A DNA stretch of 64,000 nt, taken from the IMG/VR virus record IMGVR_UViG_3300028914_000059, positions 64,001 to 128,000 of that record; one strand, written 5' to 3'. A model generated the notes under the pieces. It did no database searches, was not told the origin of the DNA, and saw only the letters and a list, made by a program, of their open reading frames with translations. Positions 2,790 to 55,096 of the stretch are shown in pieces. Source of the stretch: a virus (taxonomy: Duplodnaviria; Caudoviricetes). Position 1 is the first letter of the stretch, and every line of letters starts with the position of its first letter. A program made the position numbers and the translations under genes.

Positions 2790-3482
2790 ATGGCTGCTAA
2801 AACATATGCAGGAGCTATGGCTCACATTAACTCTCTGGCTTCTGCAGTAACTACCAAGCTGAACTCTATTAATGTGTCAGGCACAAACTCAGGAAGAGCT
2901 GAACAGGTAAGAACAGCTAAAGCCTGGTATACTGAACAGTTCGGTAATCTGAAAGAAGCTCTGTCCGGTTATATCAACGGTGGAACCGGCTGGTTCAGAG
3001 TGGAGGGGCAGAACAAGAAGACCATGGAAAATGACATCTATGAGCTGATCACAGCAGGTGTTAACAAACTGTGCATATCTCTGGAACCGGAAGAAGGCGA
3101 AGAACCAATCAACTTCTGGGATTATTTCGGAGCCGAAGATTCGCTGGGGACAATTCTCAGCTGGACTATCAATGATGTCTATCTAGGCTATGCAAATCTT
3201 CCTACAAACCATACCCTGTTCGCACCCGTAATACAGAAGCTGAACAATGCACCCGCACAGGAACATGCTCGCAGAGAAGAGCTGCAACTGAAGCTTATGG
3301 GTGATTACATGATGTACAACCTGCCTGAGCTGTTGGAACCAGACTATCAGGTATTAGGGCCTGACGAAGACCCACCCACTATTCAGGAAATAGGTACTGT
3401 AATTTACATAGATTGGAAGTTAAAGGAAGTTATAGAAGCTTTCAATCTGGACATTTATATCCCAACTTATGTAAGGAGCTGA
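2790..3482 (+). CDS. Hypothetical protein
   Basis: 230-aa ORF, AAGGAG SD. Confidence 0.8.
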   Translation: MAAKTYAGAMAHINSLASAVTTKLNSINVSGTNSGRAEQVRTAKAWYTEQFGNLKEALSGYINGGTGWFRVEGQNKKTMENDIYELITAGVNKLCISLEPEEGEEPINFWDYFGAEDSLGTILSWTINDVYLGYANLPTNHTLFAPVIQKLNNAPAQEHARREELQLKLMGDYMMYNLPELLEPDYQVLGPDEDPPTIQEIGTVIYIDWKLKEVIEAFNLDIYIPTYVRS

Positions 3483-4970: not shown

Positions 4971-5081
4971 GAGTAAAAGAGTCAGCCTGTATGTGCTGGC
5001 TCTTTTTTAGCTGGTATTTTTAGGTATAAGATAACTGTAAGTTCATGTTGAGCTTACTAACTCAAATTAAGGAGACAGACA

Positions 5082-6272
5082 GTGAAAGACTCTAAACACA
5101 CAAAAGATTTGATCAAGCGCGCTGCTCTTGATCTGGGAACTAAAACCGGTGGTGTTCCCACCACCTTCAATTTCTCGGTTTTTAAACGTAACATCAGTGA
5201 TGAAGCTGAGCTGGTCAGGAACATAGCTACTGTTATAGAAGCTACTTTCCCAGGCATGGGTAACCCATATCTCTGGGCACCGGCTCAGTATGACGTCGTT
5301 ATTAAGACTCAGGACAAGATGGGTGAATATGATGCCACCCTTTTTACTGAGCAGGCTTTGAACAGGGCTTGTGGTGAACTGGGATTGAAACGACAAGAAA
5401 AGACTCCAGACAGGGATTCTGGGATTCTTGAAATTTTAAACCACTTTAAAACTACCGGTTTTACTAGTGGGAGAATATCTAGAATTAACGGAATCCTACG
5501 TAAAAGTTCGCGCTATATGTTCTGGGATGACAACTGCAGTTGCCAGAGCGTAATAGAAACCATGGTCGAAGCTGGGCTTCTTGGCCTGGACAATAATGAC
5601 TATGGTGCCTCAGAAATTGCATACCTGACTGAATTAGGACGTGAGATCCTTAAGCTCTACGGGGATTCTATGACGGATCTGACTGTTATTACTGACCTCA
5701 TAAAATCAGTAGCCTTCTTTAAGCTGAAAAGATACTGGGCAGAAGCAGTAGCTCATCAGATTATCGAGGACAGCGACGGTCCGTTGCTGTACTCGGTTGA
5801 AAAGCGACTATTGGAACGTAAACCACGTAAAGACAACCTGGCCCCAATGCAGAAGATTGAGACTCCGAAGTATGACTATGTTAAACCTGCTGATAAACCT
5901 AGGGTTAAAGAAATCGAAATCAAACACGATGAGCTTAATCCTCCTAAGCTGGAGCTCAAGCCTAAAACTAGAGCAGCTATGCCAATAAAGATAGAACAGC
6001 CAATGGAAGTCCATAAACCAGCAGCCAAGACTATCGAAGTTGAAGAAGTATTCGTAGCACCCAAACCAACAAAGGAGAATATCGTGGTTAAAAATCCAGA
6101 TCTCGTAGAACAACTAGGAGTAGATACCCAATATCCGTCTATCTTTGAAATGGAAGATATTCAGGATGTTGTTCTCAAGCTGACAATGCTGCAGTTAAAA
6201 TGTGAAAGCAAAGGTCAGCCTGGCAAAGCTGACACAATTTCAAATATGATAAAATTCTTGATGAAAGGGTAA
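5082..6272 (+). CDS. Hypothetical protein, possible winged-helix segment
   Basis: GTG start with AAGGAG SD; EAGLL...YLTELGREIL resembles a wHTH wing; K/P/E-rich linker. Confidence 0.7.
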   Translation: MKDSKHTKDLIKRAALDLGTKTGGVPTTFNFSVFKRNISDEAELVRNIATVIEATFPGMGNPYLWAPAQYDVVIKTQDKMGEYDATLFTEQALNRACGELGLKRQEKTPDRDSGILEILNHFKTTGFTSGRISRINGILRKSSRYMFWDDNCSCQSVIETMVEAGLLGLDNNDYGASEIAYLTELGREILKLYGDSMTDLTVITDLIKSVAFFKLKRYWAEAVAHQIIEDSDGPLLYSVEKRLLERKPRKDNLAPMQKIETPKYDYVKPADKPRVKEIEIKHDELNPPKLELKPKTRAAMPIKIEQPMEVHKPAAKTIEVEEVFVAPKPTKENIVVKNPDLVEQLGVDTQYPSIFEMEDIQDVVLKLTMLQLKCESKGQPGKADTISNMIKFLMKG

Positions 6273-23885: not shown

Positions 23886-26800
23886 TTAAACTATTATAGC
23901 TTCAACCTCTTCTGCCGACATCAGGCTAAACTGGTTTGCAGCTATAGCTGGAATAGTTACATTAAGAGTAACATTCATACTACCATCAATAGATACACTT
24001 CCTTCAGCATCTCCAGTTAATGAAAGCTCAAAAGCTTCACTTAAAGCATCAGCTTCCGCCGCACTTGCTGCCGTTGTAGCAGTATCTGCTGTAGTAGCAC
24101 TGTCTGCAGTTGTTGCATGACCAGCTGTAGTTGCTGATACTGCAGTAGTGGCACTATCTGCTGTGGCTGCTGCTATATTCAATGGCAACTGCGCTGTTGG
24201 CAATCTCCCTGTGCTGTCCAATTCAGCATATCCATCCGGCTGACCCTTATTGGAGAGAACTTCATTGCCAGCATGGGCTGTAAATGATTCCAGATGAGCC
24301 TTTATTGCGGCAGCAGTAACTTCATTATTTCCACCATAATCAAGGGCCTGGTCTGTATTCTGATCATGAGCCTGACCTACAGCTGTATCTATAGCTGATA
24401 CTGTAGATACTGGCTTATTCTGCAAGTTGCTCCAGTCAGTAACCATATCCAGGCTTTCCTGTTCAGCAAGTTTTACCCAGACGTCCTGATCTGCATAATA
24501 TGTATATAAAGCCCATCCACTATTTACACTTGCATCAGCGCTTGCATCGAGAACTCTTACCTGAGCACCATCAGCTACGTTAGTCATAGCATCACGAGCT
24601 GCTATATTGGCAACATTCGGAACTGCACTTGCAGTTGACAACGGCATCTGTGATAATGGAATACGACCATTAGCATCCAGACTTGCATAGCCATCAGCCT
24701 GACCACGACGAGCTGTTACTTCATACTGAGTAGCATCATTGATAAACTGATCAATATCATCATGATCATAAGTACCCTTATCACTTAAGTCATTGTGAGA
24801 CAGCTTATGGAATCTAGTTCTAAGAACGGTTTCGCTATTTTCTTCGACAGCTACAGTGCCTAGAACATAAGTATCTGCACTGTTAGCTACTCTGAGATTT
24901 GGGCCAAGGTCACTATTATCAGCAAGTAACATGCTGATTGGGGCGTATGCCGAATCATGGTTGTGATTACCTGCTGCTGCCTGATTAGCACCTGATCCTA
25001 TAGTGTGGTGAATAGCCGATGTAGATGAATCAGTATCAGCACTATCATGGCTTCTTGCCTGAGTAAGATTTCCTGCAAGAGTGCTGATAGTAATTGGATC
25101 ACTGCCTTCTGCTGCATGGTACTGGGCATGTGCGGAAGGTGGTCTGGCATTAGTAAGTCTAGGGTCATTGCCTTCGCAAACGCTACCAGAACCAGTACCG
25201 AAACTTATCTCCTCGGACTTTATCTTACCTAAAGCGTTCAAGCCGGCATATCCATTAGGAATATCTTTATTAGCTTTATCTTCGTGGCCACTATGAGGTG
25301 TTGTTGCTTCTATATGAGCATCAATCTGAGCGTGTGTATAAACACCTTTATTGATCAAATTGGCATGGTCTACCTTAGCAGTATCTTCGCCATCATGAAT
25401 GTGATTGTTACCGCCAAGAACACCCTGATCTATTGGAGCATATCTTTCATCATGCAGGTGGTCACCAGGAGCTGCCTGAGTATGGCCATCACCTAGAGTA
25501 TGATGTATAGCTTCTTCACTGTCATCAGTATCCACATTATTATGTGTTCTATCCTGAGCCAGATTTCCTGCCAGTGTGCTCAAATATAGAGTGTCATCAC
25601 CATCACTAGTATGTGAATGCGCATGTTCAGTTGGATATCTATCGTCACTAAGTCTTGGATCAGAACCAAGAACAAGCTGATCATCATCACCACCAATAGG
25701 TAAATGTTCAATAGGGACATTAGCATCGTCGTCTAACCCAGCGTATCCATTTGGAACATTCTTGTCTGATATAACCTCGTGGCCTGGATGAGGGTTTGGG
25801 TCATCCAAATGAGCATCTATTTCTGCATGAGTATGGTCTCCACGGTTGGCCAGGTGCATGTGGTCGCATCTGTTCAAGCCTGCAGGCATACTTTCTATAT
25901 AAGATGGAACTTCAGTAGTGTCTATGTAGGCTTCCTGACCTTCAAACCAGCTTTCATCCTCAATGCCTAAATTCTGTATAACTACCTGGAAATCCAGCTC
26001 ATCTCCACCTGTAAGTCTTTTCAGTCTAAGTGCTGCACTAACACCGTCAGACTTAACTTCCAACTGGAATTCATTGGAAGCCAGGTCACTGGAATCCAGA
26101 GGATCTGCTCTGAACCATTCTCCACTGGTATGATTATGGTTCAAAGAGAGCGAATATTGTTTAAGAATATATCTTGTAGCATCTTTGACGCTGACAAATA
26201 TAAAATGCTTACCTGTATTTGTATCGAACTGTCCCAGTTCTACACAAGCGTTTTCAGCTAAATCCAGAGAACGATATAAAGTGATGCTGGAATAAATCTT
26301 ACCATTGGCTTTCATACGGCCAACCTTGCCATCATAGCGGTAAGTATTGACCATTCTATGATAAAGCTTCATGAATATAGCATGGAAAGACTTATTCTCA
26401 TCCAAAGTAACTGTTCTACTGGCAGACAGCACACCATCACTCCAGGCAGAGAATGCATATCCTTCTTCTGGGACAGCTGTCAAAGTTATCTGACTACCTT
26501 CTTCAAAGATACCAGCACCGTCTACATGACCAAATACCGGGTCATTAGAGGTAGCCTCGACTGTGAAGTATATTATTTCTTCGAACAAAGCTGTATATGT
26601 AGCGTCTCCGGTTACCAGAACACTTCTAGTTGCCTGCATATCACCGTCATTCCAGCCAATGAATCTTGCACCAGCTCTTGGAACAGCTGTTATAGTAATA
26701 TAACTGTCTTCCTGAGCATAGCCCTCACCAGTTACATTTCCAAGTTCAGAATCATTCGTTTCTACATTGATGTAGAAAGTCCTGAGAATCTTGGAGAACA

Positions 26801-29800
26801 CAGCTGTTACTGATAAGTCGTCGTTCACAGTGATGGTTCTGGAAATTCCGGAGCCACCGTCACTCCACGAGGACAACTGATACTGCTGAGCAGGAGATGT
26901 ATAAACTGTTACTTCAGTGCCAGGCACCACCATAGTTGTTATACTGTTTTCAAATGGCCCTTCTTCCGAGAAGGAAACTCCGCCATTAGCTCCATTGCTA
27001 GACTGCACAGTAAGAGATTTCTTCATTCTGAATACTGGCTCGTAGGAAACATCAGCATCTACAGTAACAGTTCTAGGATTGTCTGTGTTGTGATCAGACC
27101 ATTCTGCAAAATAAAAGTTTTCCACAGGAGTAGCTGTCAGAACAGCCGTTGAACCTGCAGCATAAGCACCTTCTCCAGATACTGTCCCATATTCTGACTG
27201 GAATATCTGGAGCATGTAACCGAACAAAGCTGTAATAGTCTGATTACTATTGACTGTCACACCTCTTGGATTTGCAACAGAGCCATCACTCCAACCGACA
27301 AAAGATACACCCTGCGCAGCTGTAGCTTCTATCTCTGCTACTTCACCAGCTTCATATTCACCACCACCGGTAGCTGTACCCAAATTATTGTCGTTAGAGT
27401 TAACAGTAAGCGTATAAACTGGGATATCCCTGAATGTAACAGCAGTAAGGCTCACAGGATTAGCTGCTGATATTATTCTTGATAATGATGTAACACCATC
27501 ACTCCATGCTGACAGGTCTCTGTCTTCACCTGGAACTAGAGTCACATTAAGGTTACCAGTAGGATCACACCAGCCTGAATAAGTATTATTTTCACGAGTA
27601 AGATTGCCTGCATTACTTGTATATGTAATAGTATCGGATTCATCTGTAACGCTTATTTCTATATGAGACTGGAAAAATGCTCTGATAGTCTGATCACTGG
27701 ATCCTATAGTAACATTCCTTTCAAGATTAGTGTTAAGATCATCCCAGTATTTTAATCTGAAACCATCGTCCGGTACAGCTGCAATATGAACGACTGTACC
27801 TGTTGGATACAATCCAGCACCGACGAATGATGCACACTGAGCGCCACTTCTACTTTCCAGAGTCAAACTGTACAGCTGTTCAAATGTAGCTGTCAGTGAT
27901 AGATCATCAATAAGCACCACTGTTCTAGTTGGATCGGTTTCACCATCACTCCAACCGTTAAATCGGACGTGATCAGAAGCTGGGGTAGCAACCAGGGTAA
28001 CCTGAGTACCGTGTTCATATGTTCCGGAACCGGCGACAGACCCAAGATTGGCATCGTTGGATGTTAGTGTAACTGTATGTGTGACTATCTGAACGAAAGT
28101 TGCTGTATATGTTGTATTATCTGCCCATACATCTCTTGGGTTATCTGTATTGTCGTCGTTCCATTGCGAAAATCTATATCCTGCATTTGGCACAGCTGTT
28201 ATTGTGGCGTGTTCACCGGGACAGTAATTACCACCACCAGTGACACTACCCATAGTGGCATCTGCTGAAACAGCATTTAAAGTAAAACCGAAACCTGCAG
28301 TGTATGTAACACTACTAGCTGGCATTATTATAGTTCTTGGGTTTTCAGTAACTCCATCATGCCATCTTACAAAAGCATAGCCAGAAGCTGGTGTTGCTGT
28401 AATGACAACTGAATCGCCTTCTGCATAATTGCCTGCACCTGTTACTGTGCCATAATTATTATAATTTTGATGTAAAATAAGCTCGTAGGTGGAAACTACT
28501 GGTGTAGCTGCTTGAGACAGTAAGGTATCGCCATTGACATATGCAGGAACACCTTCTATAGTATCTGATAATATTGGTCTGCCTTTAGCACTGCTCATTT
28601 CCCATGTGTCATTATAGTCCAGTGTAGATAAATTAGCGGTGTTAGCAAAGGCCTGAGATGTAAGCTCTGTATTAGTTCCATACTGCGGGGCCTGAAATGA
28701 GGGTGTGTTTTCAACATAAAAACAGTTATCTGAATGGACATCCTGTGTGTCTAAGCCACCAACAGCTCTGAATATAACATTATTACCAGTGCCAGTAAAA
28801 GCAGAGCCTAAATCAACAGAGTCAAAGTTATAGCTATCTTCGATCTGCAGCTCATTATTGTTATTATAGCTGGAACAGAACCCTGCATAAGTGGTTTGTG
28901 ACGGTACAGCAGCTAAAGTATAATTACATATAGAATAACAATCTCTCAGTTCTCTAGTTGGCTCTTCACCAGCGTTAAAGCTTCCTGCTGAAATAGAGAA
29001 TGAACTTTGAGAGTAGTAATATAAACCGGATAAATCCGCCCTGTTTACCACACTGGTGTTCTGCCCATTTACTGTTAGAGCCCCAATACACTCTGACATG
29101 TAATCTACAGCTGCAGCACTACTGTTAATTATAAAGGGTGCTACATACAAATAATTTATAGTTGCTGGAGCTAAATTAATGGTTCCACCCAGATACATCC
29201 GAGTAAATGCCAATGACTCCTCAGAAATACCTATAGATGTAAGTTGTGGTTGTGTCACTTTTTCATATTTGCCAGTAGCACTATTATATTTATAAAGACT
29301 ATATACGTTATTTCCATCCACGATAACTGGCGCTATAGTCAGATATTCCCTTGTGTAAGCATTATCCACAACATTTATAACAGGATCTACATAAATATTA
29401 TCTGCGCAGATATTACAGTAGACGCAAGAGAACATAGTGGTACCAACATTTATTATATTAGTATTGTCTACATAAATATGATCTACACAATCAGCTCTGA
29501 ATAAAGCGGGGTAATAATATCTTCCTGTAAAATTAAAAACAGAATTTGTTACTTCGACATTACTAATCCTACCCGGAGAGGAGCTGCTATATTGAACATA
29601 GTGTCCAAACATGCCATAAATCAATACGCCAGTGCAATCCTCATAATCGTAGTTAGTACCTGTATTTATATTAAAATAACAGTGGTCAAATTTTAAATTA
29701 CGTATTACACCATTACGTCCAGCAGACGTAATTAAGGATAACCAGGAAGACCACTGACCCTCTGTGTCCTGATAAACATAAGCTCCCCTGATGGTGTGAT

Positions 29801-30077
29801 TGTTACCGTTAAATTCTTTCAGGTACACCCATGTTCTATAGTCATAATCGCAGCTATCCATAGGCCCTGTTGGATTAGCCGGGGGTGTGGTTCCCCAGGA
29901 TGCAAAATCAGTTATATCATTAAATTCTAAATCTGTGTCCAAACATAGATAAGCGTCAGTAAGCTCATTTCCATCCTGAGAGGAACAATTAGCTATTAAC
30001 TCGTTCCATGCATCTATACTACCTATTGAATAAGGATCCTGCTGGGTTCCTGACCCTGTTATATATGTAAAAGGCAT
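23886..30077 (-). CDS. 2063-aa long tail fibre/adhesin
   Basis: GSGTQQDPYSI N-terminus, about 11 Flg_new-like repeats, HxH metal-knot motifs, NGYAGLD repeats. Confidence 0.8.
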   Translation of the reverse strand: MPFTYITGSGTQQDPYSIGSIDAWNELIANCSSQDGNELTDAYLCLDTDLEFNDITDFASWGTTPPANPTGPMDSCDYDYRTWVYLKEFNGNNHTIRGAYVYQDTEGQWSSWLSLITSAGRNGVIRNLKFDHCYFNINTGTNYDYEDCTGVLIYGMFGHYVQYSSSSPGRISNVEVTNSVFNFTGRYYYPALFRADCVDHIYVDNTNIINVGTTMFSCVYCNICADNIYVDPVINVVDNAYTREYLTIAPVIVDGNNVYSLYKYNSATGKYEKVTQPQLTSIGISEESLAFTRMYLGGTINLAPATINYLYVAPFIINSSAAAVDYMSECIGALTVNGQNTSVVNRADLSGLYYYSQSSFSISAGSFNAGEEPTRELRDCYSICNYTLAAVPSQTTYAGFCSSYNNNNELQIEDSYNFDSVDLGSAFTGTGNNVIFRAVGGLDTQDVHSDNCFYVENTPSFQAPQYGTNTELTSQAFANTANLSTLDYNDTWEMSSAKGRPILSDTIEGVPAYVNGDTLLSQAATPVVSTYELILHQNYNNYGTVTGAGNYAEGDSVVITATPASGYAFVRWHDGVTENPRTIIMPASSVTYTAGFGFTLNAVSADATMGSVTGGGNYCPGEHATITAVPNAGYRFSQWNDDNTDNPRDVWADNTTYTATFVQIVTHTVTLTSNDANLGSVAGSGTYEHGTQVTLVATPASDHVRFNGWSDGETDPTRTVVLIDDLSLTATFEQLYSLTLESRSGAQCASFVGAGLYPTGTVVHIAAVPDDGFRLKYWDDLNTNLERNVTIGSSDQTIRAFFQSHIEISVTDESDTITYTSNAGNLTRENNTYSGWCDPTGNLNVTLVPGEDRDLSAWSDGVTSLSRIISAANPVSLTAVTFRDIPVYTLTVNSNDNNLGTATGGGEYEAGEVAEIEATAAQGVSFVGWSDGSVANPRGVTVNSNQTITALFGYMLQIFQSEYGTVSGEGAYAAGSTAVLTATPVENFYFAEWSDHNTDNPRTVTVDADVSYEPVFRMKKSLTVQSSNGANGGVSFSEEGPFENSITTMVVPGTEVTVYTSPAQQYQLSSWSDGGSGISRTITVNDDLSVTAVFSKILRTFYINVETNDSELGNVTGEGYAQEDSYITITAVPRAGARFIGWNDGDMQATRSVLVTGDATYTALFEEIIYFTVEATSNDPVFGHVDGAGIFEEGSQITLTAVPEEGYAFSAWSDGVLSASRTVTLDENKSFHAIFMKLYHRMVNTYRYDGKVGRMKANGKIYSSITLYRSLDLAENACVELGQFDTNTGKHFIFVSVKDATRYILKQYSLSLNHNHTSGEWFRADPLDSSDLASNEFQLEVKSDGVSAALRLKRLTGGDELDFQVVIQNLGIEDESWFEGQEAYIDTTEVPSYIESMPAGLNRCDHMHLANRGDHTHAEIDAHLDDPNPHPGHEVISDKNVPNGYAGLDDDANVPIEHLPIGGDDDQLVLGSDPRLSDDRYPTEHAHSHTSDGDDTLYLSTLAGNLAQDRTHNNVDTDDSEEAIHHTLGDGHTQAAPGDHLHDERYAPIDQGVLGGNNHIHDGEDTAKVDHANLINKGVYTHAQIDAHIEATTPHSGHEDKANKDIPNGYAGLNALGKIKSEEISFGTGSGSVCEGNDPRLTNARPPSAHAQYHAAEGSDPITISTLAGNLTQARSHDSADTDSSTSAIHHTIGSGANQAAAGNHNHDSAYAPISMLLADNSDLGPNLRVANSADTYVLGTVAVEENSETVLRTRFHKLSHNDLSDKGTYDHDDIDQFINDATQYEVTARRGQADGYASLDANGRIPLSQMPLSTASAVPNVANIAARDAMTNVADGAQVRVLDASADASVNSGWALYTYYADQDVWVKLAEQESLDMVTDWSNLQNKPVSTVSAIDTAVGQAHDQNTDQALDYGGNNEVTAAAIKAHLESFTAHAGNEVLSNKGQPDGYAELDSTGRLPTAQLPLNIAAATADSATTAVSATTAGHATTADSATTADTATTAASAAEADALSEAFELSLTGDAEGSVSIDGSMNVTLNVTIPAIAANQFSLMSAEEVEAIIV

Positions 30078-30088
30078 CTTCTATCTCC

Positions 30089-31801
30089 TTAATCTATTAC
30101 TGGCATAAACATAGCTACTTCGCTATTATCTAAAACGTGATCCAGCATTGCAAATACTGCCAGGCCTATACTTGCGCCAATAGCTGTGTCGTCCTGGGGA
30201 CATCCCAGAGCTACAAGACTTGTCGTATCTTCTACTTCTGCCGGGATATCCCAGCTTCTCACTATATTATTATAGCGTATGGTAACTGCATCATCAAATA
30301 TAGAAACAGATATAACTGCGGGACCTGTAGAAACAGGGCCGGGCTGAACACCGAGAACATAAGAGTTATTATGATTATCTGACAGCTTTATCTGGAACAA
30401 ATCATATCCAGCAATCAGGTCTATCTTATATTGTTCAGTAGTTAGCAGCCTCTGTGGCTCAGCTGTCTGAGACATTTCTCTGACATCTGTTGAAAACAGA
30501 TAGGTTACATTCCTCATGTTATAGCCAGTCGAGGTAACCAGCTTATCAGTTGGTCTGAAGTAAACATGATAACCAAGACTCTGTGAAAAAGCTCTGCGTG
30601 GATGCAGTGTGGGAGTGGCTATCATAGTTTCACTCTTATCGCCAACCCACATATAGTCTGAAGTACTGTAGCCAAATCCCTTGAAGCTTGCTATAGTACT
30701 ACCTTCGTCATATTCATATACCGGAGCATACGGACTGACGGGGCTAGAGAAGGGCAAACCTCGTGGATCTATATAAACAGCATTCATCACCTGCCCTGAT
30801 AGTGTAACCACCTGACCTTCAGCCGGTACTTCACCTTCAAACTTAATAAGGCCTATACCATTGCCGGAACCAAGCTCCTTATAATCTTCTCCTACGAACT
30901 GTTCTACACCATCAACATAAGCATGAGTTGAATCCTTGATATATTCAACATCGAATGTAAACTCGGAGCGAATACCGTCACCCAGTTCTCTAGCCTTTAT
31001 ATTAAAGAACGGGCGGCCGGATGAGGATCTCTTCAGGTTGGATATTAAAGTATTAGACGGTCTGAGTATATCAGTATCCGCAGCTATAGAAATATAGGCT
31101 ATAGGCAGCATATCATCATGCAATACCGGAACAGCACCGAAACTTGCTACATCACCTTCCACTACAACTATCTGAGGCTCACAGACTTTGCCGAACCTGT
31201 CATAAAGGTCTTCATTGTATTTAATGCACACAGCATCTGTTCTGGGAAATTCCCCAGTAGGCTTAATAGTAAAAGCCTGCTTGATATCTTCGGTCAACAC
31301 TATCTTGGCTCCCTGCCTGCTCAAAGCAATGCCGGAACTTACATCAAAAGAATTAGTGTCCTGACCATAGCTTACATTGAAGCCAAACTTAACACCTGGA
31401 TCCACCAGATCCTTAAGGTAAGTGCGCAGTTCGTCATCTGTGATGTTCTGCCTGTTCATGTAAGATACCTGGAAAGAGTTTCTCTTATTGGTTATCTCTA
31501 CTGGCAGATAAATTAAATTAATTATGTTGTAGGAGCCATTAACAGAAATAAGCAGTCTGTAGTTACCAGGCTGCAGGTTGTTCCCGTCTCTGTTGACATA
31601 GGCGGTCCCAATAAAAACAGTGGTATCAGATATCTGACGAACTTCTTTCAAGTCCACAGCTGTATCTACGTTTACCACCGCGTTATCATTTTCACTATAT
31701 AGATTGACTGTCAGCCTGGGATTATCTCCAAGATCCTGGATATAACCGTTATAGCATGCAGTAAAAGGATATACTATCGGCAGCTGTCTGTAAAAAATCA
31801 T
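30089..31801 (-). CDS. Baseplate/tail structural protein
   Basis: PRTDAVCIKY and VDGVEQ..GEDY motifs shared with neighbouring genes. Confidence 0.6.
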   Translation of the reverse strand: MIFYRQLPIVYPFTACYNGYIQDLGDNPRLTVNLYSENDNAVVNVDTAVDLKEVRQISDTTVFIGTAYVNRDGNNLQPGNYRLLISVNGSYNIINLIYLPVEITNKRNSFQVSYMNRQNITDDELRTYLKDLVDPGVKFGFNVSYGQDTNSFDVSSGIALSRQGAKIVLTEDIKQAFTIKPTGEFPRTDAVCIKYNEDLYDRFGKVCEPQIVVVEGDVASFGAVPVLHDDMLPIAYISIAADTDILRPSNTLISNLKRSSSGRPFFNIKARELGDGIRSEFTFDVEYIKDSTHAYVDGVEQFVGEDYKELGSGNGIGLIKFEGEVPAEGQVVTLSGQVMNAVYIDPRGLPFSSPVSPYAPVYEYDEGSTIASFKGFGYSTSDYMWVGDKSETMIATPTLHPRRAFSQSLGYHVYFRPTDKLVTSTGYNMRNVTYLFSTDVREMSQTAEPQRLLTTEQYKIDLIAGYDLFQIKLSDNHNNSYVLGVQPGPVSTGPAVISVSIFDDAVTIRYNNIVRSWDIPAEVEDTTSLVALGCPQDDTAIGASIGLAVFAMLDHVLDNSEVAMFMPVID

Positions 31802-51088: not shown

Positions 51089-51123
51089 AATGCAGGTTTC
51101 ACCTTCACCAGAAACCTCTTAAT

Positions 51124-51197
51124 GGCAGGGTAGCTCAGATGGCTAGAGCACACGGTTCATACCCGTGATGTCGTGAGTTCGATTCTCACCCCTGCCA
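51124..51197 (+). tRNA. tRNA-Met(CAT), elongator-type
   Basis: GGCAGGG/CCCTGCC; CACGG-TTCATAC-CCGTG; canonical D and T arms; CCA not encoded. Confidence 0.92.
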
Positions 51198-51202
51198 TAT
51201 GT

Positions 51203-51415
51203 GTCCTGGCAGCCTAATGGGCAGGCGGCCATAAGCAGTCCACTATTTTTATCCATCCATTTGAAGCTCCATCTATATTGATTAAAACTTTAGTGGATTA
51301 GCAGGAAGATGTCAGTTCGAATCTGACATGCTCCACATCGGGGCTATAGACTAACTGGCAAGTCGTCCTACTTGCGTGCTTATGGTGAAAGCTGGTTCGA
51401 TACCAGTCCAGGACT
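51203..51415 (+). ncRNA. Double-headed tRNA-like RNA 1 (outer tRNA, inner permuted tRNA, third arm)
   Basis: GTCCTGG(51203)/CCAGGAC(51408); GCCATAAGCA/TGCTTATGGT; inner ATGCTCC-A/GGGGCTA; AGCAGGA/TCCTACT; two D arms and two TTCGA T arms. Confidence 0.85.
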
Positions 51416-51430
51416 TTCTTAATAATTTTC

Positions 51431-51515
51431 GGGTAGGTGCCGGAGTGGTTAATCGGAGCGGACTGTAAATCCGCTGGTCTAACGGTCTACGGTGGTTCGA
51501 ATCCACCCCTGCCCA
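51431..51515 (+). tRNA. tRNA-Tyr(GTA)
   Basis: GCGGA-CTGTAAA-TCCGC; long variable arm; A73. Confidence 0.92.
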
Positions 51516-51581
51516 TTTGATGGAGGGAAAAGGATACTACAAAGGCTAAGTTTGGAGTATCCTGGAACCTACATCAACAAA

Positions 51582-51729
51582 GAACCAGTAGCTCAAGTGG
51601 ATAGAGTATCCATGGAATCAGGAAGCAACGTGAGTTCGAATCTCACTGTCGTTGGTAACAAAACGACATGGCCAAGCGGCGAGGCACCTGTCGATTGGGA
51701 GGTTCTGGGTTCGAACCCCAGCTGGTTCA
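51582..51729 (+). ncRNA. Double-headed tRNA-like RNA 2
   Basis: Outer GAACCAG/CTGGTTC-A; inner TGTCGTT-G/AACGACA; connectors TCC/GGA and CAGG/CCTG; two D arms and two T arms. Confidence 0.85.
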
Positions 51730-51730
51730 A

Positions 51731-51876
51731 TGGTTATTTCTGGATGTGTCAAAGTGATACCCCTGTGTTCGATAGGATGCATACATCGGCATGGGTAGTA
51801 TAGCAGAAGACACAGGTTGCTGCAGCAACTACGTAGAGCCATAGTGCTCTTTGGGTAAAACCCACCAGGATAATCA
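51731..51876 (+). ncRNA. Unassigned multibranch structured RNA
   Basis: TGGTTATTTCTGG/CCAGGATAATCA closing stem; CCTGTGTT/GACACAGG; several short hairpins. Confidence 0.55.
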
Positions 51877-51879
51877 CCT

Positions 51880-51963
51880 GGAGGAATGTCCGAGTGGTCG
51901 ATGGTGAGAGTTTGCTAAACTCTTGGATCAAAAGTCCCGCAGGTTCGAATCCTGCTTCCTCCG
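51880..51963 (+). tRNA. tRNA-Ser(GCT)
   Basis: GGAGGAA/TTCCTCC-G; AGAGT-TTGCTAA-ACTCT; variable arm. Confidence 0.92.
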
Positions 51964-52079
51964 ATGATTATTGTTTGAGCAGTGTGCACTATGACAACAG
52001 CGGCGAAGTGTCAGGCTGAGACGTCAGCATTGTCCCAGTAGCCGGCATGAGTCATACATTGGCTGTTCATGCAATATGA

Positions 52080-52175
52080 GGACGACAGACCGAGTTGGAG
52101 AACGGGGAGGCTATTTAAGCCTCTGCTCATTTGGTAGATGAGCTATAGTGTGGTTCGAATCCACACTGTCGTCCT
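52080..52175 (+). tRNA. Atypical type-II tRNA-like RNA, anticodon undefined
   Basis: GGACGACA/TGTCGTCC; GAGG-CTATTTAAG-CCTC; 8-bp variable arm; 6-bp T stem. Confidence 0.6.
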
Positions 52176-52462
52176 TGACGGGTACAGCGGTACAGCCTAG
52201 GCCCTACACTAATGGATAAGAGTGCGCACTCTTGAGTGTATTATGGCCGGACGTAGAGTGGTTATCCTTCCCAATGAAAACGTCCCCTTGAGATTTTCGA
52301 CGGTTTGCTGGATGTGCCGGCCAGCATCATTTCCAACGCGGAACCCTGATCAGATTGCGTAAGTACGAAATGCGTTCACACAGAAAGAACACCGTTGGCT
52401 GGGTGTATGAGGTAGCGGTTGGCGCTACGTCTCGTGCCCAGCCTTCCTGCCCTGCAGGGATT

Positions 52463-52518
52463 AGACCTCCACGCGGGAGCTTAAGCCTTGTAAGCACCGT
52501 ACCATGTGGAGGCCGCTA
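52463..52518 (+). repeat. Structured motif copy 1 (AGCCTTG loop)
   Basis: AGACCTCCACGCGGGA...AGCCTTG...CCGTACCATGTGGAGGCCGCTA; second copy at 53934. Confidence 0.75.
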
Positions 52519-52519
52519 T

Positions 52520-52604
52520 GGGGCGGTAGTTGTAATGGTAGAACGTGCAGATAGATAATTCCGCGGTTGTCTGCAAGGTCGTGGTTCGATTCCACGTCGC
52601 CCAT
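52520..52604 (+). ncRNA. tRNA-like RNA with elongated anticodon arm and no 7-nt loop
   Basis: GGGGCGG/TCGCCCC-A; TGCAGATA/TGTCTGCA around 14 nt; CGTGG-TTCGATT-CCACG. Confidence 0.75.
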
Positions 52605-52625
52605 TTTCTGAAAAGGAGAATTACT

Positions 52626-53255
52626 ATGCCTAAACTTTGTGCAAAAATTGGCGGAGAAACATATAAGTTTGGTTTTAACGGGGGGGTACTTCAAGAAAAA
52701 ACTTTAAACCAAACTGTAAATGATGAAGCCACTGCTTACTTTATAGAGGCTTATAAGGTAACTAGTCATAATCCATGGCAAGCCATGAGTTATACTATAG
52801 CAAAAGATTTAAAGTATAATTGTCCTTGTAAATGTTACTTTAATGACTCAATGCTTATATGGACAGCTGGATGGAACAGAGACTTCTTTATTAGTGATAA
52901 AAATGTAAGCAATACGGTGAGCGAATATAGAGTCTATATAAAAATACCGAAGTTTATTGAAAACTGGGGGAGGCCTGATGCTGACACCTCTTTTATGCTT
53001 AGTGAAATATACTCCAGATGTGACAGGAATATAATATGTTCAACAGATGGTGATCCCATGCATGAGTTAGATATAGGTGATGATCATATAGCTAGAAGCT
53101 TACTGACAGACTGGACTAATTATATATTTGATGGTGACAGGGATTATTACATAGCATTTGTGATAGAGTTAGATACTACTCACTCCAACATTCACCTGTT
53201 TGTACCATCTTTTAAAGCGACATTTTACAGATATACAGGAAACTATATAGCATAA
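52626..53255 (+). CDS. Hypothetical protein (tandem duplicate A), possibly fibre-tip-like
   Basis: Start MPKLCAKIGG after AAGGAG; closely similar to 53281. Confidence 0.75.
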   Translation: MPKLCAKIGGETYKFGFNGGVLQEKTLNQTVNDEATAYFIEAYKVTSHNPWQAMSYTIAKDLKYNCPCKCYFNDSMLIWTAGWNRDFFISDKNVSNTVSEYRVYIKIPKFIENWGRPDADTSFMLSEIYSRCDRNIICSTDGDPMHELDIGDDHIARSLLTDWTNYIFDGDRDYYIAFVIELDTTHSNIHLFVPSFKATFYRYTGNYIA

Positions 53256-53280
53256 TCTATATAAAGGTAGGAGAATTACT

Positions 53281-53886
53281 GTGCCTAAACTTTGTGCAAA
53301 AATTGGTGGAGAAACATATAAGCTTGATTTTAACAGTGGGGTACTTCAGGAAAAAACTTTAAACCCAACTGTAAATGATGAAGCCACTGCTTACTTTATA
53401 AGGGCTTGGGGGGCGACTACTGGTCGGACTGTAGCAGAAGATTTAAAGTATAATTGTCCTTGTAAATGTTACTTTAATGACTCAATGCTTATATGGACAG
53501 CTGGATGGAACCAAAACTTCTTTATTAGTAATAAAAAGGTAAGCGATACGGCGCTAAAATATGAAGTTTGGATAAAAATACCTAAGTTTATTGAAAACTG
53601 GGGGAAACCTGATGATAGCACCTCTTTCATGTTTAGTGGAATATATTCCAGATATAATAGGAATATAATATGTTCAACAGATGGTGACCCTTTGCATGAG
53701 CTAGACATGGGTGATGACCATATAGAGAGAAGCTTAATGATAGACTGGACTAATTTTTTTGATGGAGACCATGATTATTACATACTATTCAGAGTAGAGT
53801 TAGATGGCACTCACTCCAACATTTACCTGTTTGTGCCATCTTTTAAAGTGACCTTTTATAGATATACAGGAACCTATCTAGCATAA
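53281..53886 (+). CDS. Hypothetical protein (tandem duplicate B)
   Basis: GTG start; shared GCATAATCTATATAAAGGTAGGAG junction. Confidence 0.75.
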   Translation: MPKLCAKIGGETYKLDFNSGVLQEKTLNPTVNDEATAYFIRAWGATTGRTVAEDLKYNCPCKCYFNDSMLIWTAGWNQNFFISNKKVSDTALKYEVWIKIPKFIENWGKPDDSTSFMFSGIYSRYNRNIICSTDGDPLHELDMGDDHIERSLMIDWTNFFDGDHDYYILFRVELDGTHSNIYLFVPSFKVTFYRYTGTYLA

Positions 53887-53933
53887 TCTATATAAAGGTA
53901 GGAGTTCAGCCTTGGAAATAAAGACTGCCAATC

Positions 53934-53986
53934 AGACCTCCACGCGGGAATCCAGCCTTGGGATCCGTACCATGTGGAGGCCGCTA
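53934..53986 (+). repeat. Structured motif copy 2 (AGCCTTG loop)
   Basis: Same flanks as copy 1; inner stem changed to ATCC/GGAT. Confidence 0.75.
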
Positions 53987-54141
53987 AATTAAAAGTGCCA
54001 AACGGGAAAGGCACTCTAAACATGGACACATCAACCATGGACCCGGTACCGGGTCCCAATGAAGCACCGCCAGAAATGGCTACGGCACTGGTTACAAAGC
54101 CGTAGTACCTGCCTCTCGAGCGCATGAGACAGGAACAAACT

Positions 54142-54292
54142 GAAGTAGAGGTAGGCTGGTAGCCCAGCTGGTTAAGGCACCCGGAGGAAAGTTAGCGGGG
54201 GATTATATTCCGTCACGCATTAGCTTTCTGCAAGGGAGATCAGGGGTTCGAGTCCCTTCCAGGCGACAAGACCGAAAGGTCCCCTCTACTTC
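54142..54292 (+). ncRNA. tRNA elbow embedded in a larger RNA
   Basis: Outer stem GAAGTAGAGG/CCTCTACTTC; D arm GCC-CAGCTGGTTAA-GGC; T arm AGGGG-TTCGAGT-CCCTT; anticodon arm replaced by long stem GGAAAGTTAG/TTAGCTTTCT. Confidence 0.7.
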
Positions 54293-54298
54293 TCTTTA

Positions 54299-54371
54299 GC
54301 CCCAATCGTCTAATATAATAGGATAACCGGCTTCTAGCCGGAGATGCGGTGAGAGTCCGCAAGGGGCGCCA
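54299..54371 (+). tRNA. Degenerate tRNA, anticodon TCT (Arg) on a Glu-like body
   Basis: GCCCC/GGGGC-G-CCA; CCGG-CTTCTAG-CCGG; D loop lacks GG; T loop TGAGAGT. Confidence 0.5.
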
Positions 54372-54372
54372 A

Positions 54373-54466
54373 GACGATTTATCCGAATTGGAAATAGGGG
54401 GAGGCTGTGAGCCTCCGGATATATGTTAATGTATATCCTGTGGTGGTTCGATTCCACCAGTCGTCA
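54373..54466 (+). tRNA. Type-II (long variable arm) tRNA with GTG (His) anticodon and A73
   Basis: GACGATT/AGTCGTC-A; GGAGG-CTGTGAG-CCTCC; variable arm GGATATAT/GTATATCC. Confidence 0.8.
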
Positions 54467-54470
54467 ATCT

Positions 54471-54541
54471 GGGTCGGTAACCAAGCGGTTAGGTGCTGCT
54501 CTGCAAAAGCAGCTAGATCAGTTCGACTCTGATCCGGCCCT
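54471..54541 (+). tRNA. tRNA-Cys(GCA)
   Basis: GGGTCGG/CCGGCCC-T; CTGCT-CTGCAAA-AGCAG; U73. Confidence 0.92.
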
Positions 54542-54598
54542 CTCATTTATTCATGAGATAAAATTTCTTTTCGTTGGCCAGCGCTGGCCAACATTTTT

Positions 54599-54760
54599 GA
54601 CTGCCTCGTCTAACGGATAAGACACAGGATGGGTTACGTAAAGGGTCATTTCTATCTCCTTAGTTTGATCTCAGAGTCTCATTCCTTCCTTTCATTAACG
54701 GTGTTTTTAGTCAAGTCAAGTTGCTCCGCCTGAATGCCGGTTCGAATCCGGCGGCAGTCT
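54599..54760 (+). ncRNA. tRNA scaffold with a 100-nt insert replacing the anticodon loop
   Basis: GACTGCC/GGCAGTC; GTCT/AGAC D arm; CAGG(54625)/CCTG(54729); GCCGG-TTCGAAT-CCGGC. Confidence 0.8.
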
Positions 54761-54895
54761 CTGGAGCCCGTATGAAATATGATGGGTTACCAATAAGGCA
54801 TGCTTCCGCCTGTAATGGGGCAGAGTATGTTTTAATTCGATGTCCTCCTTTTAAAAATTGTCATCGAGCATGCTGGGAAACTGGTATGCTCTTAC

Positions 54896-54979
54896 GCCCG
54901 GTTGGCGAAACTGGCAGACGCATATGATTCAGGTTCATATGTCCGCAAGGACGTGCGGGTTCGACCCCCGTGCCGGGTA
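54896..54979 (+). tRNA. tRNA-Leu(CAG)
   Basis: TATGA-TTCAGGT-TCATA; GTCC-GCAA-GGAC variable arm; A73. Confidence 0.92.
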
Positions 54980-55017
54980 CTGTTGTTTGTAGTAATCATT
55001 AAAAAACTCTATGCCTT

Positions 55018-55057
55018 GGTGCAGCTGTAATATTTTATTGCCGCTGCACTTTTTTTA
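55018..55057 (+). terminator. Intrinsic terminator closing the RNA array
   Basis: GGTGCAGC/GCTGCACT followed by a T tract. Confidence 0.65.
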
Positions 55058-55096
55058 TCTGTACATTTACGCTATAATATTAAAGAGGAGAGCACT

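What the first reader, a model, noticed from the sequence alone, without database searches (positions are those of the whole stretch)
54599..54760. tRNA scaffold displaying a 100-nt insert antisense to phage translation-initiation regions
Seen: perfect acceptor, D and T arms, with the anticodon loop replaced by 54629-54728. The insert contains TACGTAAAGGGTCATTTCTATCTCCTTAGTTTGA, whose reverse complement reads as SD-spacer-start (TAAGGAGATAGAAATG). It matches the + strand at 30064-30091 (TATGTAAAAGGCATCTTCTATCTCCTTA; 13-nt exact core plus CAT and GTAAAnGG), so it is antisense to the RBS and start of the 2063-aa tail fibre mRNA. It can also pair with TCAAATTAAGGAGACAGACAGTG (5062-5084), the start of gene 5082. 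A second pyrimidine tract CTCATTCCTTCCTTTCAT (54678-95) is also anti-SD-like. The insert is too short for a group I intron and shows no such core. Established: tRNA scaffolds stabilise RNAs inserted in the anticodon stem (a laboratory trick). Inference: a natural tRNA-scaffolded antisense regulator. Caveat: SD-like sequences inflate chance matches.
Basis: partly seen in the sequence, partly recalled or inferred. Interest (0 to 1): 0.85.

Follow-up and report, generated by a model that had tools for sequence, protein, structure and literature searches.

The report
tRNA-shaped phage RNA with anti-SD insert
A 180-kb uncultured phage carries, in its row of tRNA genes, a conserved gene for an RNA with a complete tRNA body whose codon-reading arm is replaced by about 100 bases that expose a copy of the ribosome's mRNA-docking sequence; it cannot read codons and probably binds ribosome-binding sites, but this is untested.

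Summary
54599-54760 (+) has 20 of 20 standard pairs in the acceptor, D, 4-bp anticodon and T stems. Exactly 100 nt (54629-54728) stand where the anticodon loop should be.

The element recurs at the same site in eight sequence variants from metagenomes, in two clades. Between clades the tRNA stems are unalike (12/40 nt identical), but the middle of the insert is 79% identical. The insert, not the particular tRNA, is what is kept.

The kept core shows UCUCCU/UCCUUU in a small hairpin loop. This is the complement of the phage's commonest Shine-Dalgarno context.

In this clade the flanks extend this to a 16-17-bp duplex with the start region of the 2063-aa tail-protein gene. It scores -35.7 kcal/mol, against -25.2 for the next target, and beat two SD-matched nulls. 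The specific part is not conserved in the sister clade, is partly deleted in one near relative, and shows no co-variation.

It is not a group I or bulge-helix-bulge intron, tmRNA or C4 RNA.

Best reading (about 0.4): a tRNA-processed, non-decoding riboregulator that binds ribosome-binding sites. Tail-gene specificity is possible but unproven.

This scan has noted similar tRNA-shaped, anti-SD-displaying RNAs in other phages. Phage T5 RNA2 is the nearest documented relative in form.

The parts
54573..54598 (+). Conserved hairpin GUUGGCCAG-CG-CUGGCCAAC followed by AUUUUUG, ending at the base before the element. It looks like a terminator or a processing signal.
   Evidence: terminator-like, 8 pairs. 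It is present 5-7 nt upstream of the element in every relative, with wobble or compensatory changes such as GGCCAG..CUGGCC against GGUCAG..UGACC.
54599..54628 (+). 5' half of the tRNA body: acceptor 5' strand 54599-54605, U8 C9, D arm 54608-54623, A26, and the 5' strand of the 4-bp anticodon stem CAGG 54625-54628.
   Evidence: Only one substitution (D loop C/U) is seen among the five window-clade variants.
54629..54728 (+). 100-nt insert in place of the anticodon loop (89-101 nt in relatives).
   Evidence: Indels among near relatives fall at 54641-54646, 54674, about 54695-54700 and 54710-54714. The stretches 54647-54673 and 54675-54694 are invariant.
54643..54671 (+). Predicted display hairpin: GGGUCA/UGAUCU plus CUA/UAG closing the 6-nt loop UCUCCU (54655-54660).
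   Evidence: It is present in the MFE and in the cloverleaf-constrained folds of all five window-clade variants. Loop unpaired probability is about 0.9. The sister clade has (A/G)(A/G)UC-UCCUUU-GAUU instead.
54637..54668 (+). Segment complementary to the start region of the 2063-aa gene. The exact 13-nt core UUCUAUCUCCUUA is 54650-54662 and CAU is 54647-54649.
54653..54692 (+). Core conserved between the two clades: UCUCCUU..UUGAU..AGA..GUCUCAUUCCUU.
   Evidence: 33/42 nt identical to L002 and 33/46 to L025, against 12/40 for the tRNA stems; alignment.
54676..54693 (+). Second pyrimidine tract GUCUCAUUCCUUCCUUUC. It is conserved, and its partner is unknown.
   Evidence: It is predicted to pair with 54626-54633 in this clade but is unpaired in the sister clade. 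Its complement is absent from the phage's start regions.
54729..54760 (+). 3' half of the tRNA body: CCUG, variable AAU, T arm 54736-54752, acceptor 3' strand 54753-54759, discriminator U. No CCA is encoded.
30060..30094 (-). Best predicted target: the stop codon of the 570-aa gene, the SD UAAGGAGAUAGAAG and the AUG (30077) of the 2063-aa putative tail or host-recognition protein.
   Evidence: Weak 'minor tail protein' PHROG hit.

Best explanation
The gene makes a non-decoding, tRNA-shaped small RNA.

Shown: it has a full tRNA body, with acceptor, D and T arms and the nucleotides for the elbow contacts. A roughly 100-nt module stands in place of the anticodon loop. The module's core is conserved across two phage clades even though the tRNA body around it differs.

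Inferred: the RNA is transcribed with the phage's tRNA row. Host tRNA enzymes (RNase P, RNase Z or exonucleases, CCA addition) cut it out, and the tRNA fold keeps it stable. The small hairpin loop UCUCCU (UCCUUU in the sister clade), a mimic of the 3' tail of 16S rRNA, pairs with Shine-Dalgarno sequences and so hinders 30S binding.

In this clade the loop's flanks lengthen the pairing to 16-17 contiguous base pairs over the SD and start codon of the 2063-aa tail-protein gene. That gene is the best predicted target. Whether it is the real or the only target is open.
For: 1. The tRNA body is intact in all 8 variants (20/20 standard pairs). Within the sister clade the anticodon stem changes AGUU/AACU to UGCU/AGUA, which is two double compensatory changes. 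The sister-clade element scores 43.5 bits on Rfam tRNA with a 103-nt insertion.
2. The insert core is 79% identical between clades whose stems are 30% identical.
3. The loop is predicted unpaired (about 0.9) in every variant, and the cloverleaf costs only about 2 kcal/mol over the MFE.
4. The complement of block 1 is the phage's commonest SD: AAGGAG occurs in 56/187 start regions. The base next to it differs between clades in step with their SD context. CUCCUUA goes with TAAGGAG 25: AAAGGAG 18; CUCCUUU goes with 1: 7 (Fisher p 0.024).
5. For the tail-gene start region the duplex is -35.7 kcal/mol, against -25.2 for the next and a mean of -14.0 (sd 3.9) over 248 start regions. 0/400 CUCCUU-preserving shuffles and 0/244 non-homologous natural start-region complements reach it. 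After opening costs it is -20.8, against -13.3 for the next.
6. The 13-nt core is invariant in five insert variants. Its target is identical in window, L031 and L032, and L030's only change lies just outside it.
7. Precedents: the C4 RNA of P1/P7 is cut by RNase P and its loop b' occludes a ribosome-binding site (PMC5320573). T5 RNA2 is an annotated tRNA-like stable RNA with an enlarged anticodon arm.
Against: There are no expression data.

A terminator-like hairpin ends one base before the element, so co-transcription with the upstream tRNAs is not assured.

The tail-specific part is not conserved. The sister clade has a different, self-paired stalk there. L019/L020 lost one A (duplex -40.3 to -36.5) although phages from the same samples keep an identical tail start region. 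L021 lost 6 nt.

In the sliding scan of the whole tRNA row the element's z of -5.5 is followed closely by windows at -5.4 to -5.0. The honest p for the tail match is therefore about 0.003-0.05.

No outlier target was found for the sister-clade inserts among the 69 start regions available.

The second conserved tract has no start-region partner, so base-pairing to SDs does not explain the whole conserved core. The SD-context co-variation rests on one nucleotide and 9 sister-clade genes.
Confidence: 0.4

Rival explanations
1. It is a tRNA mimic that works through proteins, not base pairing. The tRNA body and the pyrimidine tracts (three UCCUU in 100 nt) would bind or distract a host or phage protein. 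Candidates are a defence nuclease or toxin that attacks tRNA or the 16S rRNA 3' tail, a tRNA-modifying or processing enzyme, or a pyrimidine-binding RNA chaperone.
For: At least five other units in the same row keep the tRNA elbow and lose only the anticodon loop. This suggests the tRNA shape itself is the point. The second conserved tract has no mRNA partner. TCCTT is about 20-fold enriched in the insert over the genome density of 0.136 per 100 nt. The conserved core is largely unpaired in the sister clade.
Against: No protein partner is identifiable from the sequence. The match of the loop to the phage's own SD consensus, and the long duplex with the tail gene, would then be coincidences. 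Anticodon nucleases usually read the anticodon loop, which is missing here (from general knowledge).
Confidence: 0.25
2. It is a decaying tRNA gene broken by an insertion, for example a small inverted-repeat element, and has no function of its own.
For: The row holds several degenerate tRNA-like units. In the sister clade the insert is bounded by perfect 12-bp inverted repeats without G.U pairs (UUUGAUAAGCAU/AUGCUUAUCAAA). That would fit terminal repeats at the DNA level. Small tandem duplications and deletions occur in the insert.
Against: All 20 stem pairs and the elbow nucleotides are intact in 8 variants. The anticodon stem and stalk carry compensatory changes. The insert core is kept at 79% across clades whose surrounding sequence cannot be aligned. 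Indels avoid the core. No other copy of the insert exists in the genome, in IMG/VR or in 185,579 species genomes.
Confidence: 0.12
3. It is an intron-bearing tRNA gene. The insert is removed to give a working tRNA, tRNA-Gln(UUG) in the sister clade.
For: In L002, L025 and L027, removing the insert after position 37 would leave a canonical loop C-U-UUG-A-N on a 5-bp stem. The intron would pair with the anticodon, as in eukaryal and archaeal pre-tRNAs. Infernal scores the L025 element as tRNA.
Against: In the window clade no cut gives a canonical loop. ARAGORN's best is UUGCUCC with C37, an A.G pair and a 3-nt variable loop. At 89-101 nt the insert is too short for a group I intron, and no Intron_gpI or other ribozyme match was found at E<=10. 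The exon-intron junction in L002 is a continuous 5+12-bp helix with one mismatch, not a bulge-helix-bulge. Bacteria are not known to have protein-only tRNA splicing (general knowledge). The inferred insertion points differ between clades (31/32 against 37/38), while the insert core is homologous.
Confidence: 0.08
4. The functional strand is the minus strand. The SD-spacer-ATG motifs are real start sites of tiny genes: a 3-4 codon leader followed by an 18-32-codon ORF that runs antisense through the tRNA 5' half.
For: The reverse complement reads AAGGAGA-N4/5-ATG in the window clade, L002 and L025, although the spacers differ. A second GGAATGAGAC motif lies upstream.
Against: L027 has lost the ATG by a point change, with no replacement. 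ORF lengths and sequences are not conserved (32, 18 and 22 codons). G.U pairs in the T stem, anticodon stem and upstream hairpin fit only the + strand RNA. All neighbouring genes and tRNAs are on the + strand, and no minus-strand promoter-like site lies nearby. The nearby anti-SD hairpin 54836-54867 has no start codon on its reverse strand (read).
Confidence: 0.03

Closest known systems
Phage T5 RNA2 (NC_005859 32959-33083, annotated 'tRNA-like stable RNA with unknown functions'), and T5 RNA3 and RNAIV
   Same: It lies in a phage tRNA cluster. It folds with acceptor, D-like and T arms and an enlarged, non-decoding anticodon arm. Its function is unknown.
   Different: There is no sequence similarity. 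The T5 RNA2 insert is about 50 nt, carries a second T-arm-like hairpin and has no pyrimidine or anti-SD tract.
Phage T4 RNAC and RNAD (species 1 and 2 RNAs)
   Same: They are small stable RNAs transcribed from the phage tRNA region, with unknown roles (PMC3014915; PMC9697503 classes them as late RNAs).
   Different: I did not compare sequence or fold here. No anti-SD display is reported in the passages read.
C4 antisense RNA of phages P1/P7 (Rfam C4 family)
   Same: It is a phage trans-acting antisense RNA released from a longer transcript by RNase P. Its loop b' occludes a ribosome-binding site while a second loop gives specificity (PMC5320573, citing Hartmann et al. 1995). This is the same logic proposed here.
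   Different: C4 is about 77 nt with three stem-loops and mimics at most an acceptor stem. It has no D or T arms. No Rfam match to C4 was found here.
tmRNA (SsrA)
   Same: The topology is the same: a tRNA-like domain whose anticodon side is replaced by a stalk and a long functional insert.
   Different: There is no G3.U70 alanine identity pair (C3-G70 here). There are no pseudoknots and no tag reading frame. The element has a full D arm and is half the size or less. ARAGORN finds no tmRNA.
Laboratory 'tRNA scaffold' for recombinant RNA (Ponchon and Dardel; cited from my own knowledge, not checked here)
   Same: A foreign RNA is grafted onto the anticodon stem of a tRNA, so that cellular tRNA processing and folding give a stable product.
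   Different: That is an engineered tool. This element would be a natural counterpart.
Anti-SD-loop small RNAs of bacteria
   Same: A pyrimidine loop in a short hairpin pairs with SD sequences to repress translation.
   Different: Those RNAs have no tRNA body and are host-encoded. No Rfam family matched here.

Membership tests
tRNA (Rfam RF00005) | Cloverleaf with acceptor, D and T arms and the conserved elbow nucleotides (U8, A14, G18G19, U54U55C56, A58) | tested here: met
   20/20 standard pairs, T loop UUCGAAU, D loop AACGGAUA.
tRNA (Rfam RF00005) | 7-nt anticodon loop with U33 and a purine at 37 on a 5-bp stem | tested here: not met
   100 nt replace the loop. The best forced reading has an A.G pair, C37 and a 3-nt variable loop.
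tRNA (Rfam RF00005) | Score at or above the gathering threshold of 29 bits | tested here: inconclusive
   The window element gives no hit even at E<=10. The sister-clade element L025:1389-1551 scores 43.5 bits with a 103-nt insertion.
Group I intron in a tRNA anticodon loop | Catalytic core (P3-P9, P7 G-binding site), usually 200 nt or more | tested here: not met
   The insert is 89-101 nt. There is no Intron_gpI match at E<=10.
Archaeal/eukaryal tRNA intron | Bulge-helix-bulge at the exon-intron junctions | tested here: not met
   In L002 the junction is a continuous 5+12-bp helix with a single 1x1 mismatch. The window clade has no such motif.
tmRNA | G3.U70 pair, tag reading frame, pseudoknots | tested here: not met
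   C3-G70 in both clades. ARAGORN's tmRNA search is negative. No tmRNA-clan hit above noise.
C4 antisense RNA (P1/P7) and YrlA | Match to the Rfam covariance model | tested here: not met
   No such hits.
Trans-acting antisense small RNA | Complementarity to a target start region beyond chance | tested here: met
   The sliding scan tempers this, leaving p at about 0.003-0.05.
Trans-acting antisense small RNA | Guide and target conserved or co-varying in relatives | tested here: inconclusive
   The 13-nt core and the target are both invariant in the near clade. The extended pairing is eroded without any change in the target. No target is available for the sister clade. There is a one-nucleotide match to the clades' SD context.
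Trans-acting antisense small RNA | The RNA is expressed and affects its target | not testable with these tools
   Uncultured phage. No transcript data are at hand.

The most novel reading that the evidence does not exclude
Phages use whole tRNA bodies as natural scaffolds for riboregulators. The anticodon arm is swapped for a module that shows a copy of the 16S rRNA anti-Shine-Dalgarno sequence. The host's tRNA-processing enzymes cut the RNA out and the tRNA fold stabilises it, and it then blocks chosen ribosome-binding sites, here the tail-protein gene. The module can move between different tRNA bodies. Together with the look-alikes this scan noted in unrelated phages, this would be a widespread, undescribed class of phage translational regulators.
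Probability: 0.3. Interest if true: 0.85.

Novelty: new variant of a known kind. Interest (0 to 1): 0.6.

Why it matters
Stable tRNA-like RNAs of unknown function have sat in phage tRNA clusters since the T4 and T5 era (T4 RNAC/RNAD, T5 RNA2) without an explanation. This element gives a concrete, testable idea for at least some of them. The tRNA body would be a processing and stability scaffold, and the replaced anticodon arm the working part, here an exposed anti-Shine-Dalgarno loop.

If the idea is right, it shows three things:
- a natural counterpart of the laboratory tRNA-scaffold trick;
- a way for phages to tune translation, possibly the timing of a very large tail protein;
- a reason why tRNA finders miss a share of the 'tRNA genes' in phage genomes.

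If it is wrong, the element is still a clean case of selection keeping a tRNA shape that cannot decode.

Tried and rejected
1. Exact-pattern scans for either tRNA half in IMG/VR found nothing.
2. The core pattern ATCTCCTT..GTCTCATTCCTT in IMG/VR gave four hits, all one unrelated coding sequence and so chance.
3. Core plus T-loop pattern scans of IMG/VR and of 185,579 species genomes found nothing.
4. The search for related loci in IMG/VR found no relatives with the 323-aa gene, the 201-aa gene or the alignment of 92-aa proteins. Relatives came only from ENA, Logan and JGI assemblies through exact-protein look-ups and one metagenome scan.
5. The genome search could not reach the relatives' contigs. 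I therefore could not read the tail-gene start region of the 75-kb L009 contig.
6. I linked insert and tail start region by sample only for L019/L031 and L020/L032.
7. L028 (570-aa homologue, 40% identical) has a tail start region that matches none of the sister-clade inserts, but its clade is unknown.
8. Sister-clade inserts against 69 available start regions gave no outlier.
9. Counting orphan AAGGAG motifs genome-wide was uninformative, because my gene calls are crude.
10. Literature searches for a described tRNA-scaffolded anti-SD RNA, or for intron-bearing phage tRNAs of this size, found none in the library searched.
11. Considered and rejected: group I or BHB intron, tmRNA, C4, YrlA and a minus-strand mini-gene (see the rival explanations and membership tests).

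Full report
**Setting.** The window is bases 64001-128000 of a single 180,070-bp contig with 41% G+C and a terminal repeat of 100 bases or more. It is a complete or nearly complete phage genome.

Bases 51100-55060 of the window are a + strand row of tRNA genes. Default ARAGORN finds seven tRNAs and Rfam five. Between them lie several tRNA-like units that neither tool calls. Other agents of this scan have already described two of them as two-headed tRNA mimics. The row ends in a terminator-like hairpin with a U run (about 55019-55057, read). A new operon then starts with a 92-aa gene at 55097.

54599-54760 has a 7-bp acceptor stem, U8, a 4-bp D stem with loop AACGGAUA, A26, a 4-bp stem CAGG/CCUG, a 3-nt variable loop, a 5-bp T stem with loop UUCGAAU, and discriminator U. 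All 20 pairs are standard. Exactly 100 nt (54629-54728) lie where a 7-nt anticodon loop should be.

ARAGORN accepts it only when introns are allowed, and then as a poor 'tRNA-Ser(gct)'. That reading has an insert at 31/32, an A.G pair, C37 and a 3-nt variable loop. Rfam's tRNA model gives no hit even at E<=10, and no other Rfam family matches, group I introns and ribozymes included. Enforcing the full cloverleaf costs only about 2 kcal/mol over the unconstrained minimum.

**Relatives.** IMG/VR and the species-genome collection hold no copy. Exact-protein look-ups of neighbouring genes, and one metagenome scan, gave contigs from ENA, Logan and JGI assemblies.

The element sits at the same place in all of them: after tRNA-Cys and a conserved hairpin with a U tract, and before tRNA-Leu. 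There are eight sequence variants.
- The window clade has five: window and L001, L009-type, L016, L019/L020 and L021, of 151-162 nt.
- A sister clade has three: L002, L025 and L027, of 162-163 nt.

All 20 stem pairs are standard in all eight. Within the sister clade the anticodon stem changes from AGUU/AACU to UGCU/AGUA. That is two double compensatory changes plus one G.U, and the T stem gains a G.U. The G.U pairs fit only the + strand. The L025 element scores 43.5 bits on Rfam tRNA, with a 103-nt insertion standing for 11 model positions.

**What is conserved is the insert, not the tRNA.** Between the clades the 40 stem nucleotides are 30% identical (12/40), which is what unrelated tRNAs would give. 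The middle of the insert is 79% identical (33/42): UCUCCUU, UUGAU, AGA, GUCUCAUUCCUU.

tRNA-Cys next door also exists in two very different, compensated 'alleles' that are distributed as a mosaic over the clades. These phages therefore exchange tRNA-sized pieces. Either the module moved to another tRNA body or the body was swapped under it.

Among near relatives, indels (1-6 nt deletions, 5-6 nt tandem duplications) fall in four short zones of the insert. They spare 54647-54673 and 54675-54694.

In the sister clade the module stands on a long stalk: a 5-bp stem, a 1x1 mismatch and a 12-bp perfect helix in L002 (z -4.3 against shuffles). In L025 and L027 the distal stalk has a different sequence that still pairs. 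The window clade has at best a weak stalk.

**The display loop.** In every window-clade variant, the free and the constrained folds both predict a hairpin GGGUCA/UGAUCU plus CUA/UAG. It closes the loop UCUCCU at 54655-54660, with unpaired probability of about 0.9. The sister clade has (A/G)(A/G)UC-UCCUUU-GAUU. Both loops resemble the 3' tail of 16S rRNA; that comparison is from general knowledge.

The complement is this phage's commonest SD. AAGGAG occurs in 56 of 187 start regions, TAAGGAG in 25 and AAGGAGA in 22.

The base after the hexamer differs between clades (CUCCUUA against CUCCUUU), and so does their SD context. TAAGGAG: AAAGGAG is 25: 18 in this genome and 1: 7 in the sister-clade loci (Fisher p 0.024). 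That is one nucleotide and few genes, so it is weak support.

The second conserved tract is not anti-SD for this phage. GGAAGGAA occurs in none of the 187 start regions. It is predicted to pair with 54626-54633 in this clade and to be free in the sister clade. Its role is unexplained.

**The tail-gene match.** The minus-strand 2063-aa gene (23886-30077) has weak 'minor tail protein' similarity. It starts GAU-UAAGGAGAUAGAAG-AUG-CCU-UUU-ACA-UA.

The insert is complementary to this over a 13-nt exact core, 16-17 bp with end wobbles. After single-base bulges it is also complementary to the AUG and codons 2-5. This is the best non-self match of the insert in the genome (E 0.029).

- Against 248 start regions the duplex is -35.7 kcal/mol.
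- No CUCCUU-preserving shuffle of 400 reaches it; the best is -34.7.
- The reverse complements of natural start regions served as mock guides. Only four of 248 reach it, and all four are true duplicates or paralogues.
- With opening energies for both RNAs the tail gene stays first: -20.8 against -13.3 and -9.6.
- Against this, a 32-nt window slid over the whole tRNA row gives the element z -5.5, with other windows at -5.4, -5.3, -5.3 and -5.1. One window at -7.6 reflects a repeat elsewhere in the genome.

I put the significance at p of about 0.003-0.05.

**No co-variation.** The tail start region is identical in L031 and L032. These come from the same samples as L019 and L020, whose inserts have lost one A of the extended pairing (duplex -40.3 to -36.5). 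L021 has lost six bases of it (-35.0). L030 and L029 have one-base changes in the start region.

The sister clade has an unrelated, self-paired sequence where the window clade has its tail-specific flank. Its inserts show no outlier among the 69 start regions I could reach, none of which is a tail gene.

The CAU that would face the AUG is lost in L027 and lies inside the stalk helix in L002 and L025. So the generic loop is conserved, while the tail-specific extension is clade-specific and only loosely constrained.

**Alternatives.**
- *Splicing.* In the sister clade, removing the insert after position 37 would leave a canonical tRNA-Gln loop (CUUUGAN). But no cut does so in the window clade. 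The insert is too short and too featureless for a group I intron, and the junction is a continuous helix, not a bulge-helix-bulge.
- *A dead gene hit by a small inverted-repeat element.* This fits the perfect 12-bp repeats of L002. It does not fit the intact stems, the compensatory changes, the conserved core, or the lack of any other copy.
- *A minus-strand mini-gene.* The SD-spacer-ATG motif is present in three of four sequence types. But L027 has lost the ATG, the ORFs are not conserved, and the G.U pairs point to the + strand.
- *A protein-binding decoy.* This cannot be excluded. It is the main rival, because the second tract and the many anticodon-less neighbours are not explained by SD pairing.

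**Comparison with what is known.** T5's record annotates RNA2 as a 'tRNA-like stable RNA with unknown functions' inside its tRNA cluster. It folds as a tRNA with an enlarged anticodon arm, but has no pyrimidine tract and no sequence similarity.

T4's RNAC and RNAD come from its tRNA region and have no known role (PMC3014915, PMC9697503). The C4 RNA of P1/P7 is an RNase P-processed antisense RNA whose loop covers a ribosome-binding site (PMC5320573). That is the same logic without the tRNA body, and there is no Rfam match here. tmRNA shares the topology but not its defining features.

Earlier notes of this scan describe tRNA-shaped RNAs with anti-SD-like loops in Lactobacillus-type, Lactiplantibacillus and spirochaete phages. 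I did not test those. They are leads that the theme may be general. I found no paper in the library searched that describes such an RNA.

**Verdict.** This is a real, conserved, non-decoding tRNA-shaped RNA gene. Its most likely mode of action is base pairing of an exposed anti-SD loop with ribosome-binding sites, with the tRNA body serving processing and stability (about 0.4). The tail-protein gene is the best predicted target in this clade, but the evidence for that specific pairing is statistical only. The element is a new variant of a known but unexplained kind: tRNA-like stable RNAs in phage tRNA clusters.

Noticed in passing
window 54836-54867 (+): Hairpin UCGAUG/CAUCGA lies between the element and tRNA-Leu. 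Its loop carries CCUCCUUUU, an exact copy of the anti-SD core. No start codon follows on the reverse strand. The CCUCCUUUU tract is conserved in L009 and L019, where the 3' half of the stem differs (GTTATAGGG against GTCATCGAG).
   Followed up: partly
window 54573-54598 (+); L009, L019, L002, L025, L027 at the matching place: A conserved hairpin plus U tract (terminator-like) ends 5-7 nt before the element in every relative, with wobble or compensatory changes. L002 has two such hairpins. Whether it terminates, or marks a processing site, is unknown.
   Followed up: partly
window 54471-54542 and relatives (alignment): tRNA-Cys(GCA) exists as two strongly different, fully compensated versions. 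Window and L025 share one, L009, L019 and L002 share the other, and L027 is a mosaic. This points to frequent exchange of tRNA-sized segments between these phages.
   Followed up: no
window 52462-52520 and 53935-53990 (+); also L027 about 3090-3230: A repeated motif of about 57 nt: CCUCCAC..GUGGAGG encloses an inner stem that differs by compensatory changes (GCUUA/UAAGC against AUCC/GGAU) around a constant loop AGCCUUG. One copy lies just upstream of tRNA-like unit 52520-52604, before the first of the paralogous ORFs 52626-53255 and 53281-53886; the other lies just after the second. It looks like a structured RNA.
   Followed up: no
window 54373-54466 and 52082-52174 (+): The 'tRNA-His(GUG)' and 'tRNA-Lys(UUU)' calls have long variable arms and near-identical GGAGGC/GCCUCC anticodon stems. 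This is atypical for these identities. The Lys unit has A at position 33.
   Followed up: no
window 54114-54145 (+), against genome position about 5377 (outside the window): This was the strongest outlier in the sliding duplex scan (-38.7 against -17.6 for the next). The segment shares ACAGGAACA..CUGAAG with a place 113 kb away, probably a second copy of a repeated element near another tRNA-like unit.
   Followed up: no
L027 3478-3580: A 33-nt unit (GCTCGCTGAAATGCAGTAGAGGGTCATCGCTAG) is repeated 3.1 times in tandem between a tRNA-like unit and tRNA-Cys. It is absent from the window.
   Followed up: partly
L002 11959-13227 (-): A TnpB-type gene (OrfB_IS605, Cas12f1-like_TNB; 422 aa) abuts tRNA-Leu in the sister-clade phage.
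   Followed up: no
L025 about 1560-1630; L002 and L027 at the matching place: In the sister clade the 91-aa homologue of gene 55097 follows a terminator-like hairpin directly and has no SD in front of its AUG. The window's copy has AAAGAGGAGAG.
   Followed up: no
L009 1318-1481: Another two-headed tRNA-like unit, with two T arms, stands in the window-clade relative where the window has 51203-51415.
   Followed up: no
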